Shown: positions 1 to 15,238 of the stretch, in pieces
How positions within the stretch are numbered: position 1 is the first letter of the stretch
How the letters are laid out: every line of letters begins with the position of its first letter
IMG/VR virus record: IMGVR_UViG_3300017767_000001
Coordinates: 1 to 64,000 of that record
Origin: an uncultured virus (IMG/VR IMGVR_UViG_3300017767_000001)
Taxonomy: Duplodnaviria > Heunggongvirae > Uroviricota > Caudoviricetes
DNA length: 64,000 nucleotides
Direction: 5' to 3' (one strand)
Notes under the pieces: generated by a model
What the model was told of the DNA's origin: nothing
Database searches by the model: none
Seen by the model: only the letters and a program-made list of their open reading frames with translations
Translations under genes and position numbers: made by a program

Positions 1-341
1 TCAGTCAGCTCCATACTCAGGATCTTGCCCTGAATAGACTTGGGTGAGAAAGAACCGCCTTCGAAATGCTCAGCGATTTGAGCATAAGTGTACTGACCAG
101 AGTTGTCAGTAACAAAGGCGCGGAGGGTAGCTTCTTGGGCTTCGGTAAAAGACTTACCAGAAGCAGCAGAAGCAAGCTCTACCTCGTAACCCATCTTTCG
201 CAGCTTGCTAGAGATAGAACGAGTAGAAGTTTCAAGCTGGTCTGCTGCTTCTGCAACAGTAGCTTGAGATACGGGGCTTTCGCCCCCAACAAAGGTAGTG
301 AGCGCTTCAGTACGCTCATCCGTCCACTTGGGAAGTGCCAT
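1..341 (-). CDS. D5: T5 D5-like DNA-binding protein (runs off left edge)
   Basis: Manual translation from ATG 341 (GGAG RBS): MALPKWTDERTEAL...TSTRSISSKLRKMGYEV...GQYTYAQIA...SIQGKILSME. Matches remembered T5 D5 motifs and lies directly after the ligase genes as in T5. Confidence 0.85.
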   Translation of the reverse strand, partial: MALPKWTDERTEALTTFVGGESPVSQATVAEAADQLETSTRSISSKLRKMGYEVELASAASGKSFTEAQEATLRAFVTDNSGQYTYAQIAEHFEGGSFSPKSIQGKILSMELT

Positions 342-1104
342 ATTTTTTCTCCAAATAGGATTGTAAATCCATAATTATTTCAATGCCAGATTCTCTGGCC
401 TGTTTAGTTTTTGCCGATTCAATACCGCTTTCATTTACGAGAATCGTTACATCTTTTGTTAGACTTGACTTTACTACATAGCCACGACTAACGAGTGCTG
501 TGCCTGCCTGAGCCTTCGTCTTAAAACTCTTAAGCTTTCCGGTTATACAGACAATACCCCGATTCATTTCTGCAGGTAATACACTTGGGGGTGTAAACTT
601 TAAGTCAAACGGTAGAGTACCATCATAAAAACAATAGAACTCTTCATCTAACCAGTTACATAGATTCTCAGTTGCTTTTGGGCCTAATCCGGCACGCTCA
701 CAAGTGTCTGGTGTAATTTCAGTAATAGATTGGACAGTCTCAGACAGCTTCTTCGTTGCCGTTTTTCCGATCAGTGGAATACCAAAAGCAGGTAATACCA
801 AATCAAGAGGAGCCGAAATAGAGTTTTGAATTTCTGCGTGTAACTTTGTACCGAGCTTCTCGCCCAGCCTATCACATAGTAAAAATTCATCATATAGATA
901 AACTTGATCGAAGTCATCTATTTCTAGCTTCTCTATTGTTGCGGGGCCAAGCCCCTTAATCTTCAGAGTTTTTGCAAAATGCTCGATCTTTTTTTGTTTC
1001 TGTGCTGAACAGTTACTACTGTAACAGTAGAACAAATCATTGACCGAAGTAAGGTCGCCACCACAAGACGGACATTCCGTTGGCGGTAGGATCTTTTTTA
1101 GCAT
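316..1104 (-). CDS. ligB: NAD-dependent DNA ligase, C-terminal subunit (Zn finger, HhH, BRCT)
   Basis: CPSC...CxxxxC zinc finger, IKGLGPATIEKL HhH, C-terminal BRCT (CITGKL...SSLTKDVTILV...SAKTKQA). Split ligase as in T5. Confidence 0.92.
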   Translation of the reverse strand: MLKKILPPTECPSCGGDLTSVNDLFYCYSSNCSAQKQKKIEHFAKTLKIKGLGPATIEKLEIDDFDQVYLYDEFLLCDRLGEKLGTKLHAEIQNSISAPLDLVLPAFGIPLIGKTATKKLSETVQSITEITPDTCERAGLGPKATENLCNWLDEEFYCFYDGTLPFDLKFTPPSVLPAEMNRGIVCITGKLKSFKTKAQAGTALVSRGYVVKSSLTKDVTILVNESGIESAKTKQARESGIEIIMDLQSYLEKKYGTSQVDG

Positions 1105-1156: not shown

Positions 1157-2101
1157 TCAAGAACTATTTTTCTGAAGGTCTGCTCTGCGAACAATTCGCG
1201 GAATAATGTCTCCACTACGTATTACCTCTACTTTGCAACCGATTTCCAGGTCCAAAGAGCGAATGTACTCGATGTTGTGTAGAGTTGCCCTGCCCACAAG
1301 AGCACCTTCTACTTCGACTGGATCAAGTAAAGCAACAGGGCTGACTACGCCCGATTTACCTACTTGCCACACAACATCGAGCAATTCTGTAATCTTCCCC
1401 TCTTTCTGCTCTTTGAGAGCAAAAGCGCCACGAGGGTGGTGGGCTGTATGTCCCATTTTTTGAAAGGCTCTCTGATCGCGCAGGCGGTATACTAAACCAT
1501 CCGTAGGATAATCAGTAGCGTCGAAGTCTGTTACGACATTGAAACCTTCATGGGCCAATGCATACATTGCTGACTTATAGTCTGAGTAGTCTTTTTCAAA
1601 CTGGAGGTCGTAAGCGACAAAAACCAAGTCTTGAGATCGCTCTCGAAACTCTTGTATGTCTTTGACATTTAACAACCCCGCCGCAGCATTGCGAGCATTG
1701 GGGACAAACGAGGGCAAAACTACCTCTCCAGTAATCTGCACACTACCCTTCATAGGAATAGTAACAGGTACTAGCTCTTCTAGCTTTATGGTAACGTCTC
1801 GGCCTAAGTTACCATCGCCTCGTGTCAATCCGAGTGCAAAGTGTCCATTTACATACAGTAAAGACACAGCAGCCCCGTCTAGCTTCGGAGTACAAACATA
1901 CTCTGAAGTATTGGGGGCTTCAGCAAGATCAAAATATTTTTGCAGAGAATACATCTTGTACAAATGCGGAACACCGTCTGTGACCGTATGGCCTACAGAT
2001 TGGTGATTCCACTTTGCTACAAGCGCGTCATACTCTTCGTCCGAGATTATCGGGTAGCCCGAGAAGTACGCGGCTTCACATTTTTCAAAAAAATCTTTCA
2101 T
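1157..2101 (-). CDS. ligA: NAD-dependent DNA ligase, adenylation/OB subunit
   Basis: MYSLQK, KLDG active site, TRGDG, RNAAAG, DGLV, WQVGKSG, RATLHN and SGDIIP motifs. Confidence 0.95.
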   Translation of the reverse strand: MKDFFEKCEAAYFSGYPIISDEEYDALVAKWNHQSVGHTVTDGVPHLYKMYSLQKYFDLAEAPNTSEYVCTPKLDGAAVSLLYVNGHFALGLTRGDGNLGRDVTIKLEELVPVTIPMKGSVQITGEVVLPSFVPNARNAAAGLLNVKDIQEFRERSQDLVFVAYDLQFEKDYSDYKSAMYALAHEGFNVVTDFDATDYPTDGLVYRLRDQRAFQKMGHTAHHPRGAFALKEQKEGKITELLDVVWQVGKSGVVSPVALLDPVEVEGALVGRATLHNIEYIRSLDLEIGCKVEVIRSGDIIPRIVRRADLQKNSS

Positions 2102-2156
2102 ATATTTCCTCACTCAGACCATATATTATACAGAAAGAAGAAAGAAAAGTCAAGAA

Positions 2157-7981: not shown

Positions 7982-8017
7982 GCGTCCTTTCGGTACGCTT
8001 GGGCTCTTTCGATGCCC
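7982..8017 (-). promoter_or_regulatory. tandem bulged-A GAAA hairpins in the hsp20 leader
   Basis: RNA GGGC-A-UC-GAAA-GA-GCCC and GCGU-A-CC-GAAA-GG-ACGC just upstream of the AAAGGAG RBS. Confidence 0.65.
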
Positions 8018-8034
8018 GGGTTATTGTTATCCAG

Positions 8035-8187
8035 TTATAGAGATGGACTCTCTTCGTCTAGTTCTAGGATTCCTTTCTCCATTAGATAGTTTACTGTAGC
8101 CTCAACCCCTGTACGGCGGCCGAGATAAAATGCGTGTCCGGCACAACCAAACATACAAAGTGCTAGTATTAAGTAAAGTCCGATCAA
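8035..8187 (-). CDS. 50-aa membrane-anchored hypothetical protein
   Basis: AGGAG RBS, TTG start, N-terminal TM helix. Confidence 0.55.
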   Translation of the reverse strand: MIGLYLILALCMFGCAGHAFYLGRRTGVEATVNYLMEKGILELDEESPSL

Positions 8188-8222
8188 GAGATTCTCCTAT
8201 TTCTGTACAAATTTATGGAGAT

Positions 8223-8318
8223 ATTATATCAAATTGAACGACAACTGTCAAGATATATTTTTTGGAACACCACATCGCAAAAATAACACTTGACTTCGAA
8301 TCTCACTTCGAATATAAT
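8223..8318. promoter_or_regulatory. divergent sigma70 promoter pair
   Basis: Minus strand TTGACA-17-TATAAT (8251-8223); plus strand TTGACT-17-TATAAT (8290-8318). Confidence 0.85.
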
Positions 8319-8325
8319 ATATGTC

Positions 8326-8496
8326 ATGAAAGAATATAAAAAGCAACCATGGTCGATACGCGAAAGAGTAATGTTGAAAGAGCACTACTCCAAGATGTCT
8401 GTAACAGAGTTACAGGAGAAAGTATTACCTAGTCGCACGGAAAACTCGATACGCAAACAGGTTGCGTACCTACGTAAAAGAGGTTGGAGTTTTTAG
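8326..8496 (+). CDS. small Myb/HTH-like DNA-binding protein
   Basis: PWS..E...LKEHY......L....LP.RT.NSIR..V..L pattern. Confidence 0.6.
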   Translation: MKEYKKQPWSIRERVMLKEHYSKMSVTELQEKVLPSRTENSIRKQVAYLRKRGWSF

Positions 8497-8510
8497 GCAG
8501 AAGGAGATAC

Positions 8511-8708
8511 ATGCCAAAAGTTAAAGTACGTAACAATAACGTAGACGCTGCTCTACGAGTTTTCAAGAAAAAATGTTCAGAAACACTATGGGATTATAAA
8601 CAGAAGGAATATTATGTACCACGAAGCGAAAAACGACGACTGGCTAAGCAGGCTGCAGTCGCAAGATTCAAACGAAAGAGAAACGATAATGGACGGAACA
8701 AATTTTGA
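8511..8708 (+). CDS. rpsU: 30S ribosomal protein bS21
   Basis: MPKVKVRNNNVDAALRVFKKKC......YYVPRSEKRR..KQAAV.R; AAGGAG RBS. Confidence 0.9.
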   Translation: MPKVKVRNNNVDAALRVFKKKCSETLWDYKQKEYYVPRSEKRRLAKQAAVARFKRKRNDNGRNKF

Positions 8709-9069
8709 GTTAGTTGGTGATTTTATGGAAGCCTTTGGTCAGGCTGTAGAAACTCAACCAACCTGGCCTGACTTTAGCACTCGTGAACTACGGGTAGATT
8801 TAATACAAGAAGAAGTAGATGAATTGGTGGAAGCGATTGCAAACAAAGATATGGTCGAAATCGCCGACGCTCTCACCGACATTCTCTATGTTGTATACGG
8901 TGCTGGTCATACATTTGGTATTGACCTTGATGAGTGTTTTACTGAAGTACATGCTTCTAACATGAGCAAACTCGGTGAAGATGGAACACCAATTAAAGCA
9001 GACAATGGCAAGGTAATGAAAGGCCCGGGCTTTTTCGCCCCAGATTTAGAGAGTATTCTAAACCAGTGA
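8689..9069 (+). CDS. MazG/PRA-PH-like NTP pyrophosphohydrolase
   Basis: LIQEEVDEL, EIADALTDILYV.YG, EVH.SNMSK, GKV.KGP. Confidence 0.9.
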   Translation: MDGTNFELVGDFMEAFGQAVETQPTWPDFSTRELRVDLIQEEVDELVEAIANKDMVEIADALTDILYVVYGAGHTFGIDLDECFTEVHASNMSKLGEDGTPIKADNGKVMKGPGFFAPDLESILNQ

Positions 9070-9257
9070 GAAATCTTTGGAAGTTCTTTGGCTCTACCTC
9101 GTCCTTGAAGGAGCAACTGGAATCTACAACTCTCGAAATTCAGTTGTCTCCACTGGAGTTTGCGTGTATAAAAATTATCATGATCCTCGGGATAGCACTA
9201 CCTACACTTTCTATATTCCTATACTTGCTAAATGTCCTCCATTTGTACGTCATATAA
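9066..9257 (+). CDS. hypothetical membrane protein
   Basis: GTGA overlap with the upstream gene, C-terminal TM helix, followed by a terminator. Confidence 0.45.
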   Translation: MRNLWKFFGSTSSLKEQLESTTLEIQLSPLEFACIKIIMILGIALPTLSIFLYLLNVLHLYVI

Positions 9258-9283
9258 AAAAGGGGCCGTAGCCCCTTTAATTT
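9255..9283. terminator. bidirectional intrinsic terminator
   Basis: AAAAAAGGGGC-CGTA-GCCCCTTTAA. Confidence 0.8.
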
Positions 9284-9477
9284 AGAAGTATCCTGAGTGG
9301 CCTAATTTCCAAAAGCACCAAAACACTACTATTCCATATATTATCCAATAAATTTCTTCCACCTATCCCTCCAATAAAATATTTTTTCGTTAACTGAGAA
9401 GCGCCCAGGTACTGTAATCCAAGACCAGGGCAAAAATAGTATTTGTAATATGCCAAAAAGTATGGTAAAATAAACAC

Positions 9478-9808
9478 ATATTTTGATGAACAATCAAGTC
9501 AATCACAGATTCTTACTAACTAGATCGAAATCGTTTGAATTAGATTTATTCTGGGCGGGGCATAAGGCGAAGCCGTAATGTCCCTAACCATAAATCTGAA
9601 TGAAACTGATTTCGGGATCACCAATCTCTGATTACTTTTGTGCTTCAATTAAGTATTGATTGTGACGAATATTCATAATAAAGATAATCAAATAATTCGT
9701 TCACAATCAAACAACCCCGCTAATAATCATTCTACGATTATTACTGAAAATCCGTCTACTACTTACACAAAACCCTTCAAAATTTGCGCCAATTCGCAAT
9801 TTTTTTAT
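9478..9808 (+). ncRNA. candidate rod-like structured RNA (or ssDNA origin hairpins)
   Basis: Promoter TTGTAA-17-TAAAAT (9443-9471); imperfect hairpin of about 140 nt (9496-9637); second hairpin 9656-9710; stem plus T-run at 9779-9808; no credible ORF. Confidence 0.45.
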
Positions 9809-9956
9809 GGCTTATAAAACATAAAAGGGAATGTTAAAAACAATAACCATACCATTAAAACCATGAAAAATTGTTCTAAATTTGATCCCCATAGCATCGG
9901 AATGCACATAATTGATACGTAGATCCACCATAACATGCTGAGAATCTCTCGCATTT

Positions 9957-10271
9957 TTACGACCCCGCTACCGCTTCAAGGAGTTTTCTGAGAGTTTCTT
10001 TTGGGCTCTTTTCGAGGCCCGATATACTTCCCACCTCGATCTCCAGAGCATCAGCGATATTCGAAACGATTTCAATTTTTGTGATAGGTTTTTCTCCAGT
10101 TTTTGAAACATACACCTCTCTCCGGTACACGCCTTCGCGTGATAGCTTTCCAATTATTGACTTCTTACTTCTATTGAGCTCTGCTGCAAGCAACTCTACT
10201 GTACGCATATTCGGACACATAGTATAGCTTTCAATCATATACTCAGTTTCACTCTCCGTGTAGTTCGACAC
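9957..10271 (-). CDS. T5 A2-like DNA-binding protein (paralog 1)
   Basis: GTG start after GGAGG; NYT...M...Y...LA.EL..SKKSIIGKLSREGVY...K.GE..I.K. Confidence 0.75.
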   Translation of the reverse strand: MSNYTESETEYMIESYTMCPNMRTVELLAAELNRSKKSIIGKLSREGVYRREVYVSKTGEKPITKIEIVSNIADALEIEVGSISGLEKSPKETLRKLLEAVAGS

Positions 10272-10330
10272 GTTCCCTCCTATAACTTCCTTTACCTTTC
10301 TTCGGTTTGTGGACCCCGCCACGATTGTGA

Positions 10331-10657
10331 TTATGCCGCGCCACCGGGTTTCGGATCGTCTCCTTCTGTCTGTTCTTGCCCCGCATAGCTTATTTCTCCT
10401 GTATCTAGATTTATAACTACGTCACCACTTATCCACTCTAGATATTCCACTTCGACATTATCCATGCCCCGGGCTTTAACATATTGAGTGAACACCAGGT
10501 CGTAGTAATGCTCTACTTCAGCTATTTTCTCTTCTAGCTTTTCTATAGTAGTATAGCACAATTGCATACTATCATACAACTCTTTTAGCTCATTTTTTGT
10601 CGTATTTAATTTTAACTTAATACGGCGTTCTTCTGGAAACTCGATTATATTCGACAT
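10331..10657 (-). CDS. coiled-coil hypothetical protein
   Basis: GGGAG RBS, MSNIIEFP start, promoter at 10680-10708. Confidence 0.7.
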   Translation of the reverse strand: MSNIIEFPEERRIKLKLNTTKNELKELYDSMQLCYTTIEKLEEKIAEVEHYYDLVFTQYVKARGMDNVEVEYLEWISGDVVINLDTGEISYAGQEQTEGDDPKPGGAA

Positions 10658-10728
10658 AAATTTCTCCCATAGAACACATATTATACAGCCCCTGAGAAAA
10701 AATGTCAAGAAAAATTTTTAGAACACAT

Positions 10729-10763
10729 AAAAAAATCCCCACATATTTCTATGCAGGGATTTT
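10729..10763 (-). terminator. intrinsic terminator
   Basis: AAAATCCCTGCATA-GAAA-TATGTGGGGATTTTTTT on the minus strand. Confidence 0.88.
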
Positions 10764-11285
10764 ACAGTTAGGTTTAGAGCCGCGAACTGCCACTAGGCTA
10801 TATAGTGCCTTTCGTTATGGTCGAGGGTTTCGACGCCTCTTTGCAATAATAGACCAATAATAAAAAGGACTTCCTCCTATAGTTATAGTGATACGCACCA
10901 ACCTTCCACACGTATCTGGGTATGTACTGCAGATACCACCCACCACTTTTTCGTTTTTGCTAAACCAGAATGCGAAAATGCAACAAAGCCGTAACTGGTC
11001 GTACACATCCGCCCGTGTACAAGGGGGTTCGATATAGTACCTCGAACAGGGAAAAGTGCGCTAAGTGGCACTAAACTAAGATGGTACTTTTTAACGTGCT
11101 TTGCCATCCCACATTAGCACTCTGTTCCTTACTCCTCGATGCCTTTCAACCTGTACACGGCAGGGTCAACAAGGGTGGAACAAATTAGGTTGGGGCTCCG
11201 GATAGGCCGAGTTAACTTTTACCGGGATCTTTACTGTCTTATCGCAAGTGGGTAGCACACTTATGGCGTCCCTGACTTCCCCCAT
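10729..11285 (-). ncRNA. candidate large (~550 nt) structured non-coding RNA
   Basis: Own promoter (11296-11325) and terminator; nested long-range helices with G-U pairs; no ORF with a good RBS. Confidence 0.7.
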
Positions 11286-11295
11286 TTAAGAAGAT

Positions 11296-11325
11296 ATTAT
11301 ACTCCGTTTTTGAACTAAAAGTCAA
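11296..11325 (-). promoter_or_regulatory. sigma70 promoter of the ncRNA candidate
   Basis: AAAAAGTTC-TTGACT-18-TATAAT. Confidence 0.85.
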
Positions 11326-11561
11326 GAACTTTTTTTCTCTACCCCACAAATTTTTTCAAACATTTTGTGTCCAGTGCCTTTTTCGTTGTACTCCAAAACT
11401 AGCCCATCACTGTTCATATGTAGTTTAGGTTCGAACTTTTCTACGTCAGCTTCGTACACGCAAAAGGTACGTAGACGCCACGCTATATTTTCTGCGTTCC
11501 CTTTAAGCTGCACGATGCACCACCTGTAGGTCAGCAATTCGTGCAAACAAATCAGCTTCAT
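11322..11561 (-). CDS. hypothetical protein (true start uncertain)
   Basis: ORF in operon; its stop lies within the next -35 box. Confidence 0.5.
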   Translation of the reverse strand: MKLICLHELLTYRWCIVQLKGNAENIAWRLRTFCVYEADVEKFEPKLHMNSDGLVLEYNEKGTGHKMFEKICGVEKKSS

Positions 11562-11682
11562 CTCCTACTAAAAACAACTCTTTCCGAGTAGTCCAGTCTC
11601 CGTCAATACGCCCACTAAACTCAAGCACAGTCCCATTTGTAGCAAATTGAATTGTCACTTGGTCTACTTCTTTGATTTCCAT
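11503..11682 (-). CDS. 59-aa hypothetical protein
   Basis: GGGAG RBS; MEIKEVDQVTIQFATNGTVLEFSGRIDGDW... Confidence 0.6.
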   Translation of the reverse strand: MEIKEVDQVTIQFATNGTVLEFSGRIDGDWTTRKELFLVGDEADLFARIADLQVVHRAA

Positions 11683-11689
11683 TAGTTAT

Positions 11690-11920
11690 TTACTCCCATG
11701 TAGAAGGATAAAAGGAAGAAAGAGAAAAGGTTTCACGAATTTCCCCCTCTTGATACATTGTACGAATTACGTTGTCAACCTCGGCCTCTGAAAGCGCCCA
11801 GTTGTGCCACAGCTCATCTTTTACTCTTTGCAGGCTTGTGAAAGACCTACGCTGACCTTCTACTTCTATTGTATCAGTCGCTCGGTCTACTACTGCCAAT
11901 CTTTCTTGCTTCTCTAGCAC
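11690..11920 (-). CDS. hypothetical protein
   Basis: GGAGG RBS, GTG start. Confidence 0.6.
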   Translation of the reverse strand: MLEKQERLAVVDRATDTIEVEGQRRSFTSLQRVKDELWHNWALSEAEVDNVIRTMYQEGEIRETFSLSSFYPSTWE

Positions 11921-12065
11921 GCTTTTCCTCCAGGTTTTCCAACGATGTCTTCATTGCAATCGCAGTGTCTTCATTAGAGCCATGATACATCAAAGCTCCC
12001 CTTTGATTAAATACTTTGAAAACGTATAGCCCGGGCCTTACAATTTCTCGTACCATGTGAGCCAT
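11874..12065 (-). CDS. hypothetical protein
   Basis: TAATG coupling to the upstream ORF. Confidence 0.55.
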   Translation of the reverse strand: MAHMVREIVRPGLYVFKVFNQRGALMYHGSNEDTAIAMKTSLENLEEKRAREARKIGSSRPSD

Positions 12066-12280
12066 TACTCTGCCACAATACCGTAGATAGCGAACTTAAA
12101 CTCAGGACTTTTGCCAAAGTTTGCAGCAGCTTTTACGGCCTCCGCCCTCTTAACGATAGGGGAGTTAGGCTTACGCTTCGCACGATATGCGCCATGCGAC
12201 ATTACTTTTTTACCATTAAATTTCTTGACCATGCGGTACTTTCGTGTAGTCGCGTGGTCGAAAATCATTGTTTTTGCCAT
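12065..12280 (-). CDS. basic hypothetical protein
   Basis: AAGGAG RBS before MAKTMIFD. Confidence 0.6.
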   Translation of the reverse strand: MAKTMIFDHATTRKYRMVKKFNGKKVMSHGAYRAKRKPNSPIVKRAEAVKAAANFGKSPEFKFAIYGIVAE

Positions 12281-12425
12281 CAAAATTCTCCTTATAGCGC
12301 ACAAAGTAGTACGCCTTGTAATCCACTTTATTTAAGGACTCCGCTTCTCGATAGGCGTCATAATACTCTAGCCAAGTATTTAGCCAAAGAGTTACTGCAC
12401 CAATTCGAATATAAACTACATACAT
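12216..12425 (-). CDS. hypothetical protein
   Basis: ORF track; operon position. Confidence 0.4.
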   Translation of the reverse strand: MYVVYIRIGAVTLWLNTWLEYYDAYREAESLNKVDYKAYYFVRYKENFDGKNNDFRPRDYTKVPHGQEI

Positions 12426-12464
12426 AGAAATACTTAAATAAAGCGGGGCACTAGGCCCCGGGAT

Positions 12465-12785
12465 TTAGCTCAAGATCTCGAGCAAAGCTTCAAGATCAAC
12501 CTTGGTCATCTTACCTACAGAAGGCAATTCACGGCCCAGTCGCTCGTTTACAGCGTTGACAAAGAACTCTTTCTTGACAACAGGCTCACCGCGCTTGGTT
12601 ACACGCTCTGCTTTCTGGTAGATACCTAGAGCAGACAATTTGGCGATGATAGAGCGAGGGCTCTTACCAAATTTGTCAGCCAGCGCATCGACAGTAGCAC
12701 GAACAGGGTCAGCAGAGTACTTTGTAGTGATCTCGGCAATCATAGTCTCAGAGTAGTTCTGAGAGGCGTTAGCAGTCATAGTCAT
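12465..12785 (-). CDS. T5 A2-like DNA-binding protein (paralog 2)
   Basis: NYSE.M......Y......TV..LA..FGKSPRSIIAKLS.LGIY.K.....KRGE..V.K; own promoter 12835-12863 and downstream hairpin. Confidence 0.8.
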   Translation of the reverse strand: MTMTANASQNYSETMIAEITTKYSADPVRATVDALADKFGKSPRSIIAKLSALGIYQKAERVTKRGEPVVKKEFFVNAVNERLGRELPSVGKMTKVDLEALLEILS

Positions 12786-12854
12786 TTTTGTTTCTCCCGA
12801 AAAAAATTAAGTAAATTACCACTTTTGAAAATATATTATACAAGGTTCTGAGGA

Positions 12855-13283
12855 TTATGTCAAGAGATTTTTTTGGAAAGCTGCAAATAATTCTACTTCT
12901 TTTTCCCTTGCAGCTACCTCCCACGGAGCACTCCAATATTCATCCCAGTTATCAATGTCTCTTTTAAATAGTTCGTCTTGCCACATAGCATGATCGGTTT
13001 CTAACTCAAGCTCGCAGTAAATGTATTGGCGAGCGTGCTCTAGCTCATGAAATATAGTTCGTAGCCAATGAGAACTTTTATTAATACGAAGAATAATTTT
13101 ATGCCCTAGGTCTACAGAATCTCCAAAGTCTGTTTCGTGCTCGCCTTTAAGATATATAGTAATAGGCACAGGAGTGATTCCTAGATCAAGTTCTCCCATA
13201 GCAAAGTCGATCGCAGCTCGAGCTAAGTATCGTTCAGGCATTGACCATGCTTTTTTTGCTTTTACCTTTAACTTATACATCAT
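12855..13283 (-). CDS. HExxH zinc metallopeptidase-like protein
   Basis: IFHELEHARQY ... YW.APWE..A. Confidence 0.7.
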   Translation of the reverse strand: MMYKLKVKAKKAWSMPERYLARAAIDFAMGELDLGITPVPITIYLKGEHETDFGDSVDLGHKIILRINKSSHWLRTIFHELEHARQYIYCELELETDHAMWQDELFKRDIDNWDEYWSAPWEVAAREKEVELFAAFQKNLLT

Positions 13284-13464
13284 CTAACTTTACCTTCTCC
13301 CGCAGCCAAGAGTACAGCTCTACTGCACTGTCATCGTATCCGTTGGGGTACTCTTCGTCTGGTAACAAACAACGTATGGTATAGAGAAAAGCGTCTAGTT
13401 TAGGCACTCCGTCCATACGCATACCTGCGTACAAGCTAAAGGCTTCAAATTGAATATCGTTCAT
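13273..13464 (-). CDS. hypothetical protein
   Basis: GGAGG RBS before MNDIQF; promoter at 13487-13515. Confidence 0.65.
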   Translation of the reverse strand: MNDIQFEAFSLYAGMRMDGVPKLDAFLYTIRCLLPDEEYPNGYDDSAVELYSWLREKVKLDDV

Positions 13465-14002
13465 ATAGTTCCTCCGATTTATAAATATTATACCGGCTCC
13501 GGGTTTCAATGTCAAACAATTTTTGCCATACCCCCAACATAAATTTATTCCGGGGGGCGGCGTACGAAATTGCGGCTGTCAAGTGTTTTTTGCACTTAAT
13601 CTGCCAAAATTTTCGTAAATTTGACACTGTTTGCCCCAGGTTTGCCACAATTTGCCATCTTACACTACCCCGCAGAGACTTGTCAATCGATTTATTTGCA
13701 CCAATTGTGCAAAAAGTACTTGACAATCGTCGGTGTACTACTGTATAATTGGCGCGCCGCGCTTTTTAAAACAATTTGCCCTATTGCCGTAAAAAGTTCT
13801 TGACAATCCCGGGCTTTGCGCGTATACTACCAGGGTGGGCACGGGGTCTGGCACAAAGACTGCACGTTCTTAAAAAAATTTTGCCCATACCCGCAAAAAA
13901 GACTTGACAATCGTCGCTTTTGCACGTATTCTGGCGCAGGTAACACCAATCGAATCGAAACTTCACTTTCGCACTGGCGCCCGCGCGCCAAAAATCGTTA
14001 TA

Positions 14003-14015
14003 AATCAAGGGGTTG
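14003..14015 (+). promoter_or_regulatory. IHF consensus site
   Basis: AATCAAGGGGTTG matches WATCAANNNNTTR. Confidence 0.55.
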
Positions 14016-14031
14016 TGTTCCACGTGGAACC
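14016..14031. promoter_or_regulatory. parS: bacterial chromosomal parS-type palindrome
   Basis: TGTTCCACGTGGAACC, containing the 14-bp perfect palindrome GTTCCACGTGGAAC. Confidence 0.75.
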
Positions 14032-14631
14032 TTATGCGAGCCGTTCGCATAAAGTAGCCAGCAAATTTTTGATCCCGCGTTTTTTGTCGGCATAATCTAC
14101 AGTGTGCCAGTCGGAATCAATAACGCGCTCTTTTAATATGCTCATGCGGTCATAATGCGAAAGTGCGTTTTCATCATTAGCAGAAAATTTCCAATAGGTC
14201 AGGGGCGAATGCTTGCGAGCTATAATTCGGCGTTGCTGTTCTTGTTCCGAAATCGAAAGCCAAAATTTAATAAAGCGCACCGGCTGGTTAGCTTCCCAGT
14301 TTTTATGACGCCGCATAAAATTTTTGTATTGTCGCGGAGTGCACCAGCCATTCAAATGTTGCACCATGCCCCGGCTGTACCAGCTTCGGTCAAAAAACAC
14401 GATGCGATTTTGTCGCGGCAGTTTGGTTTCCCAATAGGGGAGCCAGCTTGCCATCGCTTGTTTTGTCGGTTTGTGCGATAGGCAAACGCTGTAAAGATCC
14501 GGCGGTAGGTAGTGGGTCAATTCTCGAATGGTAGAGGATTTGCCCGCAGTGTCGCGCCCCTCTAAAATTACCGCAACCGGAGCGGAGAGATTCTCCGCGA
14601 GCCGGTTCAGATTAGCTTGCAATTTTTTCAT
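14032..14631 (-). CDS. ppk2: polyphosphate kinase 2 family protein
   Basis: EGRDTAGK Walker A, FFDRSWY Walker B, KFWLSIS..EQ..R, P...WKFS..D. Confidence 0.92.
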   Translation of the reverse strand: MKKLQANLNRLAENLSAPVAVILEGRDTAGKSSTIRELTHYLPPDLYSVCLSHKPTKQAMASWLPYWETKLPRQNRIVFFDRSWYSRGMVQHLNGWCTPRQYKNFMRRHKNWEANQPVRFIKFWLSISEQEQQRRIIARKHSPLTYWKFSANDENALSHYDRMSILKERVIDSDWHTVDYADKKRGIKNLLATLCERLA

Positions 14632-14738
14632 CAGAATCCCCCATTAAACCAGTAGTAAATTGCGGCTCCCCATATAGCGAGATCGGTAATCACGCTATAG
14701 AGGAAATAGAGGGCGGCGAGTGCCGCGCCAAATCTCAC
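14631..14738 (-). CDS. 35-aa hydrophobic micro-ORF
   Basis: MRFGAALAALYFLYSVITDLAIWGAAIYYWFNGGF; GTGA/TGATG coupling on both sides. Confidence 0.55.
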   Translation of the reverse strand: MRFGAALAALYFLYSVITDLAIWGAAIYYWFNGGF

Positions 14739-15238
14739 GCCGTCACCTCAGCATAGTCTACCGGCAGAGGACAACCGTGTATACCCTTCGCTCGCTTGTG
14801 GGCAACAATACCCTCGCCAATCTGCAAGTTAGATTGGCGATAGCTGTTAGTGAAGCGAGCCATCGCGGTTTTGGCAGAGCAGAAATAAAATTCTGATTTG
14901 CCGCCAACCTCAAGCCAACGCTTGTCATATAGCATCGCCTTGTCATCTTTGTTGCGAGCGTGAACAAATTGCTCGGCGGCAAGCACCTGCTCGTTATCGC
15001 CCAGCTTCATTCGCCATACGCGAGCGTGAAGCTCCCCGCGATTGTAGCCGAAAGCGTCCTCAACATCCCGCAAGCACCAAGTCACGCGCTCGATACCACC
15101 GTGTCGCCCGTTCGCGTAAGCGTGTCGGGCATACCCGTTTTTGAAAACGCCAAATTCTAGCAGTTCCCAAACGTAGTGCCAAGCCATACCAGAGATGGGG
15201 GTGATCTCAGGTGCTGTATCTGTTGATCGTAATATCAT
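14735..15238 (-). CDS. pre-early hypothetical protein
   Basis: ATGA-coupled to dmp. Confidence 0.7.
   Translation of the reverse strand: MILRSTDTAPEITPISGMAWHYVWELLEFGVFKNGYARHAYANGRHGGIERVTWCLRDVEDAFGYNRGELHARVWRMKLGDNEQVLAAEQFVHARNKDDKAMLYDKRWLEVGGKSEFYFCSAKTAMARFTNSYRQSNLQIGEGIVAHKRAKGIHGCPLPVDYAEVTA

What the first reader, a model, noticed from the sequence alone, without database searches (positions are those of the whole stretch)
10729..11325. Dedicated ~550-nt transcription unit that folds like a large structured ncRNA
Seen: a consensus promoter (TTGACT-18-TATAAT, 11325-11296) and a strong terminator (10729-10763) enclose about 550 nt with no ORF that has a convincing RBS. The minus-strand RNA has nested long-range helices. 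5' GUCAGGGACGCC (11276-11265) pairs with GGCGUCGAAACCCUCGAC (10837-10820). GCGAUAAGACAGUAA (11245-11231) pairs with UUAUUGGUCUAUUAUUGC (10860-10843). CCAACCU (11193-11187) pairs with AGGUUGG (10904-10898). UUUGUUCC (11184-11177) pairs with GGAACAGA (11128-11121). Local hairpins include GUGCUAA..UUAGCGC, GAUGG..CCAUC, GUUCGA..UCGAAC, UUGUACAC..GUGUACGA and GUAUCUG..CAGAUAC. Several G-U pairs fit only this strand. CCGUGUACA/UGUACACGG and GGUACU/AGUACC offer pseudoknots or alternative folds. Inference: a multi-domain phage RNA in the size class of ROOL/GOLLD/OLE that I cannot assign to a known family. It sits among A2-like genes.
Basis: partly seen in the sequence, partly recalled or inferred. 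Interest (0 to 1): 0.88.

Follow-up and report, generated by a model that had tools for sequence, protein, structure and literature searches.

The report
New structured RNA of marine phages
This stretch is a real, strongly expressed gene for a roughly 555-base folded non-coding RNA of an uncultured marine T5-like phage, and it belongs to a previously uncatalogued RNA family whose shared 90-base knotted 5' core sits next to tRNA and tmRNA genes in related phages.

Summary
The promoter (11325-11296) and terminator (10763-10732) are real, and they enclose a non-coding RNA gene. No Rfam 15 family matches. No ORF is kept among 19 homologues.

The evidence for structure is covariation, not folding energy (z -1.07 for the whole RNA, +1.21 for the core).

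I found 57 distinct relatives in viral and metagenome contigs. None appeared in the bacterial genome loci returned or in 5 cultured T5-like phages.

All relatives share a ~90-nt 5' core (window 11283-11191). It is a three-way junction (P1, P2-P3, P4) with a 3-bp pseudoknot. In 59 distinct sequences 92% of cells pair, and 16 of 20 pairs show compensatory changes.

The 3' part varies in length (total 129 to ~1180 nt). In the window's lineage it holds at least seven helices supported by covariation.

In one metatranscriptome a contig at 10752-11181 has depth 458, against 3-9 for contigs on the flanking genes.

In 8 of 16 representative loci the core lies 10-500 nt from a tRNA or permuted tmRNA gene, a setting like that of ROOL and GOLLD. 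Function is unknown. My best guess is a stable, trans-acting RNA made early in infection.

The parts
11296..11325 (-). Sigma-70-type promoter: -35 TTGACT (11325-11320), 18-nt spacer, -10 TATAAT (11301-11296). The inferred start is near 11289, about 6 nt before P1.
   Evidence: 11 of 12 consensus positions. The same layout, a strict TTGACN-16..19-TAnnnT ending 10-19 nt before P1, occurs in 33 of 56 distinct family members that have at least 50 nt of upstream sequence. The transcription start itself is inferred, not mapped.
11191..11283 (-). Conserved 5' core, a three-way junction with a pseudoknot:
- P1: 11282-11279 with 11195-11192.
- P2: GUC 11276-11274 with GAC 11238-11236.
- Pseudoknot: GGG 11272-11270 with CCU 11206-11204 in the P4 loop.
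- P3: 11268-11266 with 11245-11243, plus a distal stem 11262-11258 with 11250-11246.
- P4: CCGG 11225-11222 with CCGG 11201-11198.
- Invariant junctions: GAAG, GAUAAGRCAGUAAAGAU, AG.
   Evidence: - MAFFT alignment of 34 cores (A2), counted: 92.8% of cells paired against 25-48% for slid controls; 15 of 20 pairs compensatory; 0 of 500 shuffles reach this.
- 59 distinct CM-aligned cores: 92.1% paired; 16 of 20 pairs compensatory.
- P2 middle pair: CG 39, UA 19, AU 1, no exception.
- Pseudoknot middle pair: GC 50, AU 9, no exception.
- CM hit in the phage's own genome: 11190-11284, 89.7 bits, E 5.5e-22, single copy.
11182..11190 (-). A/U-rich single-stranded linker (ACCUAAUUU) between the core and the 3' domain. 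It is a possible processing site.
   Evidence: The sequence is kept in the long-form relatives. RNA contigs of two studies (X15, X20) stop at 11181 and 11183. This is only a weak hint: contigs cannot show RNA ends, and no DNA run was laid for comparison.
10764..11181 (-). Lineage-specific structured 3' domain. Helices with covariation support:
- 11181-11177 with 11128-11124.
- 11108-11104 with 11084-11080.
- 11047-11042 with 11032-11027.
- 10916-10911 with 10895-10890.
- 10867-10852 with 10822-10808, which encloses the hairpin GAGG 10839-10836 with CCUC 10826-10823.
An optional hairpin module at about 10806-10766 is seen in 8 of 19 homologues.
   Evidence: on A3 (19 sequences): 40 pairs, 89.3% paired against 32-50% for slid controls, 19 pairs compensatory, 0 of 500 shuffles reach this. 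Searches give RNAalifold predictions. This is not a complete fold: several regions have competing models.
10729..10763 (-). Intrinsic terminator: a 14-pair hairpin at 10763-10732, then a U run.
   Evidence: Its 33 nt are identical in all 8 sequences of A1, although the RNA bodies are 68-96% identical. The X15 RNA contig begins at 10752, inside the hairpin.

Best explanation
SHOWN. Window 11289-10730 (minus strand) is a stand-alone gene for a structured non-coding RNA of about 555 nt. It is read from a strong host-type promoter in the early-gene region of an uncultured marine T5-like phage.

It is the long form of an uncatalogued RNA family. The family is defined by a ~90-nt 5' core: a three-way junction locked by a 3-bp pseudoknot, with about 35 near-invariant unpaired bases. 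The core is followed by a lineage-specific 3' extension, so that the whole RNA measures 129 to ~1180 nt from core start to terminator. In the window's lineage the 3' extension is itself a multi-helix structured domain.

INFERRED. The RNA acts in trans as a stable RNA made early in infection. The conserved core would be the working module that binds a conserved partner, either a protein or RNA of the host's or the phage's RNA and translation machinery. The variable 3' domain would add stability, assembly or lineage-specific functions.

This places it in the phage's set of stable RNAs, because the core lies next to tRNA and permuted tmRNA genes in related phages. In that respect it works like ROOL and GOLLD.

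My odds: structured ncRNA gene of a new family, about 0.9. Trans-acting stable RNA with the core as binding module, about 0.4. Specific partner: unknown.
For: - Promoter and terminator.
- No Rfam family.
- Homologues: 9 loci at 68-96% identity; 52 of 91 viral loci (read by eye) and 22 of 119 metagenome loci carry the core; 57 distinct members in all.
- Core covariation on a MAFFT-only alignment. On 59 CM-aligned sequences.
- 3'-domain covariation.
- ORFs are not conserved, and 1-nt indels occur in close relatives.
- Expression: RNA-library contigs of 4 studies lie on the unit. In X15 the contig 10752-11181 has word depth 458 with 0 mismatches, while that run's five contigs on the flanking genes have depth 2.8-8.8.
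- Evidence that the core is a free-standing module: it occurs with only about 40-60 nt plus a terminator (L019, L020), 10-15 nt before a tRNA whose 5' maturation would release it (L127, L041), and at the first bases of the transcript in 33 of 56 members.
- A tRNA or tmRNA gene lies within 10-500 nt in 8 of 16 representative loci.
- ROOL and GOLLD are phage RNAs 'often near tRNA islands' (passages of PMC12286853).
Against: - No partner, ligand or activity is shown. The mechanism is inference from anatomy and gene context.
- Folding energy is unremarkable.
- Contig depth is a poor measure of expression, and the runs were found with this very stretch (tool caveats).
- No RNA contig of X15, X17 or X20 covers the core itself, so the abundant species may be the 3' domain alone.
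- In L138 and L151 the core sits 20 nt before the ribosome-binding site of a small ORF. That fits a cis-acting role better.
- The window phage has no tRNA or tmRNA gene, so the link to the stable-RNA cluster is indirect here.
- The 16 loci were picked by me as representatives of subfamilies. They are not a random sample.
Confidence: 0.55

Rival explanations
1. Cis-acting 5' module. The core would be a structured 5' cap-like element that protects untranslated phage transcripts from 5'-end-dependent decay. Alternatively it would make the polymerase resistant to Rho or to terminators on long untranslated RNAs (ncRNA, tRNA, tmRNA). The 3' part would be the cargo.
For: - The core starts within a few bases of the inferred transcription start in 33 of 56 members.
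- It precedes very different cargoes: a 3' domain, tRNAs, a small ORF.
- 3' domains of different subfamilies are not detectably homologous.
Against: - In L019 and L020 the core is followed only by about 40-60 nt and a terminator, so there is nothing to protect.
- Before a tRNA, a 5' protector would be cut off when the tRNA matures.
- The downstream gene has its own perfect promoter (10708-10680), and the terminator is strongly conserved. Read-through is therefore not needed.
- A simple hairpin would be enough for 5' protection. The core keeps about 35 invariant unpaired bases and a pseudoknot.
Confidence: 0.15
2. New self-cleaving or RNA-processing ribozyme. The knotted three-way junction would cut at its own 5' or 3' edge and separate itself from neighbouring RNAs (3' domain, tRNA, tmRNA).
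For: - The core has ribozyme-grade conservation of junction bases and a pseudoknot.
- It sits at boundaries between RNA genes.
- RNA contigs of two studies end at 11181 and 11183, 10 nt after the core (a weak hint only).
Against: - No match to any Rfam ribozyme family.
- Contig ends can be assembly breaks where relatives share sequence.
- The linker is A/U-rich, so a host endonuclease would explain a cut as well.
Confidence: 0.1
3. Ligand-sensing (riboswitch-like) aptamer, or a tRNA-like mimic derived from the tRNA-like domain of tmRNA. It would sense a metabolite, or it would engage tRNA-handling enzymes or the ribosome.
For: - The size and complexity are those of an aptamer.
- In L138 and L151 the core lies 20 nt before a ribosome-binding site.
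- The topology resembles the three-way junction of a tRNA-like domain: a closing stem, a long arm, and a hairpin whose loop pairs with a G-rich junction. This resemblance is my own recollection, not a test.
- tRNA and tmRNA genes are neighbours.
Against: - In the window the terminator is 450 nt from the core, and the next gene has its own promoter. There is no expression platform.
- ARAGORN finds no tRNA or tmRNA here.
- No Rfam tRNA, tmRNA or riboswitch model matches at E<=10.
- The bases after P1 follow no CCA rule (read).
Confidence: 0.12
4. The unit encodes one or more small proteins (the 74-aa, 63-aa or 39-aa ORFs), and the apparent RNA structure is incidental.
For: ORFs of 39-74 aa exist on the transcribed strand. 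The first 12-13 codons of the 74-aa ORF are kept in many relatives.
Against: - The ORF's frame and length change among relatives, even in the 95.5% identical L002 through a 1-nt insertion. It is absent in at least 5 of 19.
- There is no usable ribosome-binding site before its ATG (read).
- None of the ORFs hits Pfam or PHROGs.
- Substitutions are compensatory in helices.
Confidence: 0.03

Closest known systems
GOLLD RNA (Rfam RF01998; accession as quoted)
   Same: - A large structured ncRNA encoded by phages, often next to tRNA genes. One marine example lies downstream of a Met-tRNA.
- One universally conserved region plus a less conserved region.
- Function unknown.
(Passages of PMC12286853.)

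In this family there is a conserved 5' core plus a variable 3' part. A tRNA or tmRNA neighbour occurs in 8 of 16 representative loci, and in L127 a tRNA-Met lies 10 nt away.
   Different: - No cmscan match at gathering score or at E<=10.
- In GOLLD the conserved part is 3'; here it is 5'.
- This RNA is shorter: 129 to ~1180 nt, and 555 nt here, against often more than 800 nt.
- Whether it forms multimers is untested.
ROOL RNA (Rfam RF03087; accession as quoted)
   Same: - A phage or prophage ncRNA of about the same size class.
- Multiple pseudoknots, near tRNA islands, no known protein partner or function (passages of PMC12286853).
   Different: - No cmscan match.
- The hosts and habitat differ: here, marine uncultured T5-like phages.
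- This family has a small conserved core with interchangeable 3' domains, rather than one conserved overall fold.
Small stable RNAs co-encoded with tRNAs in T-even and T5 phages (recalled from older literature; no paper was retrieved)
   Same: Phage stable RNAs of unknown function that lie among tRNA genes and are probably matured together with them.
   Different: I could not retrieve sequences or papers (one search listed none that is relevant). The CM finds no core in T5 or in four other cultured T5-like phages: 0 of 5 at E<0.01.
Earlier finding of this scan, e1-6065543: an orphan 425-base RNA gene in another 86-kb uncultivated marine phage
   Same: A promoter-terminator unit for a strongly folded ncRNA in a marine phage, with no relatives found by that agent. 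The length falls in this family's 430-470 nt class.
   Different: A look-up by sequence found no look-alike window.

Membership tests
GOLLD (RF01998) | Match to the Rfam covariance model at its gathering score | tested here: not met
   cmscan of the whole window at gathering score gave 0 matches. Region 10400-11700 at E<=10 gave only 3 terminator-like chance hits. Sixteen family loci at gathering score gave only tRNA and tmRNA.
GOLLD / ROOL kind (large ornate phage ncRNAs) | Phage-encoded, several hundred nt, extensive covariation-supported structure with pseudoknot(s), frequent tRNA neighbourhood | tested here: met
   - Phage origin.
- Length 555 nt.
- Covariation.
- tRNA or tmRNA within 10-500 nt in 8 of 16 representative loci.
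- The defining traits are taken from passages of PMC12286853.
ROOL (RF03087) | Match to the Rfam covariance model at its gathering score | tested here: not met
   no match.
GOLLD / ROOL kind | RNA-only homo-oligomeric cage | not testable with these tools
   This needs native gels, SEC-MALS or cryo-EM of the in vitro transcript.
tmRNA / tRNA | Detected by ARAGORN or by the Rfam tRNA, tmRNA and tmRNA_permuted models | tested here: not met
   ARAGORN finds 0 genes in the window and in the whole 94.6-kb genome. cmscan gives none. The same tools do find tRNA and permuted tmRNA beside the core in relatives, so they work on this material.
RNase P RNA | Match to an Rfam RNase P model | tested here: not met
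   No match even at E<=10. A purine-rich GGAGGAAGUCC stretch at 10877-10867 reminded me of a conserved RNase P region. That is a recollection only.
Riboswitch (any class) | An aptamer directly coupled to an expression platform that controls the downstream gene | tested here: not met
   In the window the core is separated from the terminator by 420 nt of structured RNA. The downstream gene has its own 12 of 12 promoter at 10708-10680. No Rfam riboswitch matches. Ligand binding itself is not testable here.
Protein-coding gene | An open frame conserved in position and frame among homologues | tested here: not met
   no ORF of at least 35 aa is shared in frame by the 19 homologues.

The most novel reading that the evidence does not exclude
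This is the founding description of a new class of large phage RNA. Its 90-nt knotted core would be a catalytic or specific-recognition module, for example a new self-processing ribozyme or a binder of tRNA or the ribosome. Its interchangeable 3' domains would build higher-order RNA assemblies like the ROOL and GOLLD cages. Together they would form a third, marine branch of the still unexplained 'ornate phage RNA next to tRNAs' phenomenon.
Probability: 0.25. Interest if true: 0.9.

Novelty: new variant of a known kind. Interest (0 to 1): 0.8.

Why it matters
Large, intricately folded RNAs with no known function are rare. Each new class (OLE, GOLLD, ROOL, raiA) has opened a line of structural and functional work.

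This family has several useful properties:
- It is abundant in marine viromes, with 57 distinct members from capped scans.
- It is expressed in metatranscriptomes.
- Its short core is supported by covariation as strong as that of a validated riboswitch or ribozyme.
- It comes in natural 'minimal' (~130 nt) and 'ornate' (~550-680 nt) versions, which is a ready-made dissection of core and accessory domains.
- It repeatedly neighbours tRNA and two-piece tmRNA genes, so the open question of what tRNA-island RNAs do for phages can be tested in a second, unrelated RNA fold.

The core is small enough for in-line probing, crystallography or cryo-EM scaffolding. The promoter is a standard sigma-70 type, so the RNA can be expressed in laboratory gammaproteobacteria even though the phage is uncultured.

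Tried and rejected
- Thermodynamic signal: none (z -1.07 for the whole RNA; +1.21 for the core). Folding energy is therefore not used as evidence.
- blastn of the unit against 50,697 GenBank phage records: no match. The 8-kb surroundings matched only a pyrophosphohydrolase gene of Caulobacter phage Cr30.
- tblastn of the two downstream proteins against GenBank phages: no match.
- CM search of T5, HK6, My1, Vibrio phages X1 and PG07: only E 0.06 and 0.23 noise.
Absence from cells is suggested, not proven.
- 'More conserved than its flanks': rejected. Identity is mosaic, and some flanking ORFs are 93-99% identical where the RNA is 85-93%.
- RNase P-like and tmRNA-like resemblances that I noticed by eye: no model support. 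They are kept only as leads.
I read this and did not count it formally, because the alignment register shifts there.
- Neighbour protein (108 aa): weak DUF5638 hit below cut-off, nothing in PDB sequences, and only unnamed viral clusters in the ESM Atlas. There is no clue to an RNA partner.
- Literature: searches for GOLLD/ROOL/phage/noncoding RNA, bacteriophage T5/tRNA genes/stable RNA and T5-like/marine/noncoding RNA/phage/structured RNA listed no paper on this RNA. I saw only listings, except for passages of PMC12286853. This does not prove that the RNA is unpublished.

Full report
WHAT IS THERE

The window is the first 64 kb of a 94.6-kb IMG/VR virus record, estimated 97% complete. Its large terminase is about 50% identical to those of Demerecviridae (T5-like) phages of Pectobacterium, Serratia, Vibrio and Escherichia. 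It has a split NAD-dependent ligase, portal, protease/capsid, tape-measure and tail-fibre genes. It is therefore a distant, uncultured T5-like phage.

The stretch 8000-15000 is an early-type region packed with consensus sigma-70 promoters and terminators: 23 promoter-like sites against 14.3 expected, seven of them with 11-12 of 12 consensus positions. The next gene downstream has its own 12 of 12 promoter at 10708-10680.

NOT A KNOWN RNA, NOT A PROTEIN GENE

Rfam 15 gives no match at gathering score anywhere in the window. At E<=10 on 10400-11700 it gives only three chance hits on the terminator. ARAGORN finds no tRNA or tmRNA in the window or in the whole genome.

The inner ORFs (74, 63 and 39 aa) hit nothing in PHROGs or Pfam. 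Among 19 full-length homologues no ORF of at least 35 aa is kept in frame. The 74-aa ORF becomes 97, 69, 55, 49 or 36 aa, or vanishes. In the 95.5% identical L002 a 1-nt insertion shifts its frame.

FOLDING ENERGY SAYS NOTHING

The 562-nt RNA has z = -1.07, and 16 of 100 shuffles fold as well. The core alone has z = +1.21.

RELATIVES

GenBank phages hold nothing similar. Loci fetched through the downstream 121-aa gene (78 loci) contain the whole RNA at 68-96% identity in 9 loci: L002/L004, L011/L013, L010, L044, L015, L003/L005 and, in part, L012.

A profile of these showed that more distant loci keep only the first ~100 nt. A 17-nt motif from that part found 91 viral loci, of which I read 52 as real.

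That gives 57 distinct members in all. A covariance model of the core (R1) finds:
- one copy in the window's genome (89.7 bits);
- 21 of 78 syntenic loci at E<1e-9, plus two very divergent ones at E about 1e-3 (L062, L064);
- none of five cultured T5-like phages at E<0.01.

THE CORE

On a plain MAFFT alignment of 34 distinct cores (A2) I wrote down P1, P2, P3, P4 and a 3-bp pseudoknot between the junction after P2 and the P4 loop.
- 92.8% of cells pair, against 25-48% when partners are slid by 1-3 columns.
- 15 of 20 pairs have changes on both sides, in 115 cells.
- No shuffle out of 500 reaches the observed values.

On 59 distinct CM-aligned cores 92.1% of cells pair and 16 of 20 pairs are compensatory. 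P2 and P4 are 100% paired. The middle pair of P2 is CG 39, UA 19, AU 1. The middle pair of the pseudoknot is GC 50, AU 9, with no exception (this alignment leans towards the model, A2 does not). RNAalifold on the full-length alignments recovers P1-P4 on its own.

In the window the core is 11283-11191. The junction strands (GAAG, GAUAAGRCAGUAAAGAU, AG) are nearly invariant.

I aligned 19 full-length long-form RNAs (A3).
- H1's 5' strand is P2, the pseudoknot and P3 of the core.
- H1's 3' strand is the local hairpin GAGG/CCUC, which covaries in 3 of 4 pairs.
- H2's 5' strand is the invariant junction of the core.
- H2's 3' strand pairs locally with 10822-10808.
- H3 overlaps P1, and its 3' strand lies in the loop of the hairpin GAUACG/CGUAUC.

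A set of seven 3'-domain helices (40 pairs) is 89.3% paired against 32-50% for slid controls. It has 19 compensatory pairs, and 0 of 500 shuffles reach this. This is a partial model. Several regions, for example 11171-11137 and 10941-10919, have competing predictions.

The 3' domains of other subfamilies are not detectably homologous to this one. The distance from core start to the first predicted terminator ranges from 129 to 1177 nt, with groups near 130, 340, 450 and 510-680 nt.

EXPRESSION

Twenty run records from 13 studies, all marine, seawater or viral metagenomes, hold the stretch. Six of them are RNA libraries. I laid four RNA runs from four studies on 9000-13500.
- X15 has a 430-nt contig at 10752-11181, with 0 mismatches and word depth 458. 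Its five contigs on the flanking genes have depth 2.8-8.8.
- X17, X18 and X20 have contigs only inside 10779-11260, apart from one 37-nt partial match.

Caveats from the tool apply. Contigs give one depth figure each. The runs were found with this very stretch. DNA can be present in RNA libraries. Contigs show no ends or strand. With those caveats, the data fit an abundant RNA.

Contigs of X15 and X20 stop at 11181 and 11183, 10 nt after the core, in an A/U-rich linker. This is a weak hint of processing. It could equally be an assembly break where relatives share sequence. I laid no DNA run for comparison.

CONTEXT IN RELATIVES

In most loci the order is: promoter, core at the start of the transcript, variable 3' domain, terminator, promoter, then a small gene that begins with the motif 'M..II.FP'.

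In 8 of 16 loci that I chose to represent the subfamilies, a tRNA or a permuted (two-piece) tmRNA gene lies close to the core:
- tRNA-Met 10 nt after it (L127).
- tRNA-Cys 15 nt after (L041).
- tRNA-Glu 92 nt after (L062).
- a tRNA 56 nt before (L025).
- a permuted tmRNA 42 nt before by ARAGORN's coordinates (L119), 316-409 nt before (L105, L084), or about 500 nt after (L138).

In L138 and L151 the core is followed after 20 nt by a ribosome-binding site and a 50-codon ORF with codon-type substitutions. The window phage itself has no tRNA or tmRNA.

HOW IT MOST LIKELY WORKS

Shown: a dedicated gene; a conserved knotted 5' core; a structured 3' domain; presence in RNA libraries.

Inferred: the core is the working module. 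It survives alone (about 130-nt RNAs). It is placed where tRNA maturation would release it. It keeps about 35 unpaired invariant bases, which is typical of RNAs that recognise a specific partner or catalyse a reaction.

I therefore favour a stable, trans-acting early RNA that belongs to the phage's stable-RNA set, with an unknown partner (about 0.4). The rivals are a cis-acting 5' protector or anti-termination element (0.15), a self-processing ribozyme (0.1), a ligand sensor or tRNA-like mimic (0.12) and small proteins (0.03).

COMPARISON WITH WHAT IS KNOWN

The closest kinds are GOLLD and ROOL. They are large phage or prophage RNAs, 'often near tRNA islands', of unknown function. GOLLD has a conserved region and a variable region and includes a marine example next to a Met-tRNA. 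Both form RNA-only cages (passages of PMC12286853).

The present RNA shares the kind but not the family. No model matches. The conserved part is 5', not 3'. The fold is different.

It may be a member of this family, but I could not test it.

Three literature searches listed no paper on this RNA. I saw listings only, and the library lacks most subscription journals.

VERDICT

This is a real, expressed, new family of structured phage RNA with a very well supported core. Its function is open. Interest is high.

Noticed in passing
L084:1675-1916(-), L105:1562-1803(-), L119:1311-1739(-), L138:22-244(-), L151:1717-2060(+): Related marine phage contigs carry circularly permuted (two-piece) tmRNA genes. 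Predicted tags are ANDEVYDLAMAA, ANDEVYDLAIAA and ANDDVYQLAA (ARAGORN; Rfam tmRNA_permuted at 91-109 bits). The window phage has none.
   Followed up: partly
L112:1168-1291(-), L118:1110-1250(+), L162:268-425(-): In one subfamily the P3 arm of the core holds 3, 4 or 5 tandem copies of a 17-nt unit (ACAGTTTTGTACTTGAT). The copy number therefore varies inside a structured RNA.
   Followed up: no
window 10729-10763, and the same place in L002, L011, L010, L044, L015, L003, L012: The 33-nt terminator is identical in all 8 aligned relatives, although the RNA bodies are 68-96% identical. Promoter and terminator cassettes seem to be conserved or exchanged as units in this mosaic early region.
   Followed up: partly
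window 8000-15000: Promoters are unusually dense. Seven sites have 11-12 of 12 sigma-70 consensus positions: five perfect at 13515, 12863, 10708, 8251 (minus strand) and 13720 (plus strand), plus two with 11 of 12. Almost every small early gene is its own transcription unit.
   Followed up: no
window 9957-10322(-) and 12465-12785(-): Two paralogous small genes hit PHROG phrog_1725 'DNA binding protein' at E about 4e-4 and flank the RNA region. Relatives of the first are widespread: 78 IMG/VR loci. None is found in GenBank phages.
   Followed up: partly
window 316-1104(-) and 1157-2113(-): The NAD-dependent DNA ligase is encoded as two adjacent ORFs (PHROGs 3498 and 3359). I recall that T5 has the same split.
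   Followed up: no
whole genome G000 (94,590 bases): ARAGORN finds no tRNA gene at all. I recall that cultured T5-like phages carry many tRNAs, and several relatives of this phage carry tRNAs next to the RNA core.
   Followed up: partly
L010:3344-3473, L365 (same module), L015:~1140-1180, L097:~1260-1340: Long-form relatives differ by whole inserted modules: about 130 nt before the terminator in L010 and L365, and 40-80 nt just after the core in L015, L003, L121 and L097. The RNA seems to grow by adding hairpin modules.
   Followed up: no
window 11322-11561(-) and 11503-11682(-): The two ORFs upstream of the RNA promoter (79 and 59 aa) overlap by 59 nt in different frames. This could be a frameshifted or mis-split small gene. 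The 79-aa ORF ends inside the RNA's -35 box.
   Followed up: no
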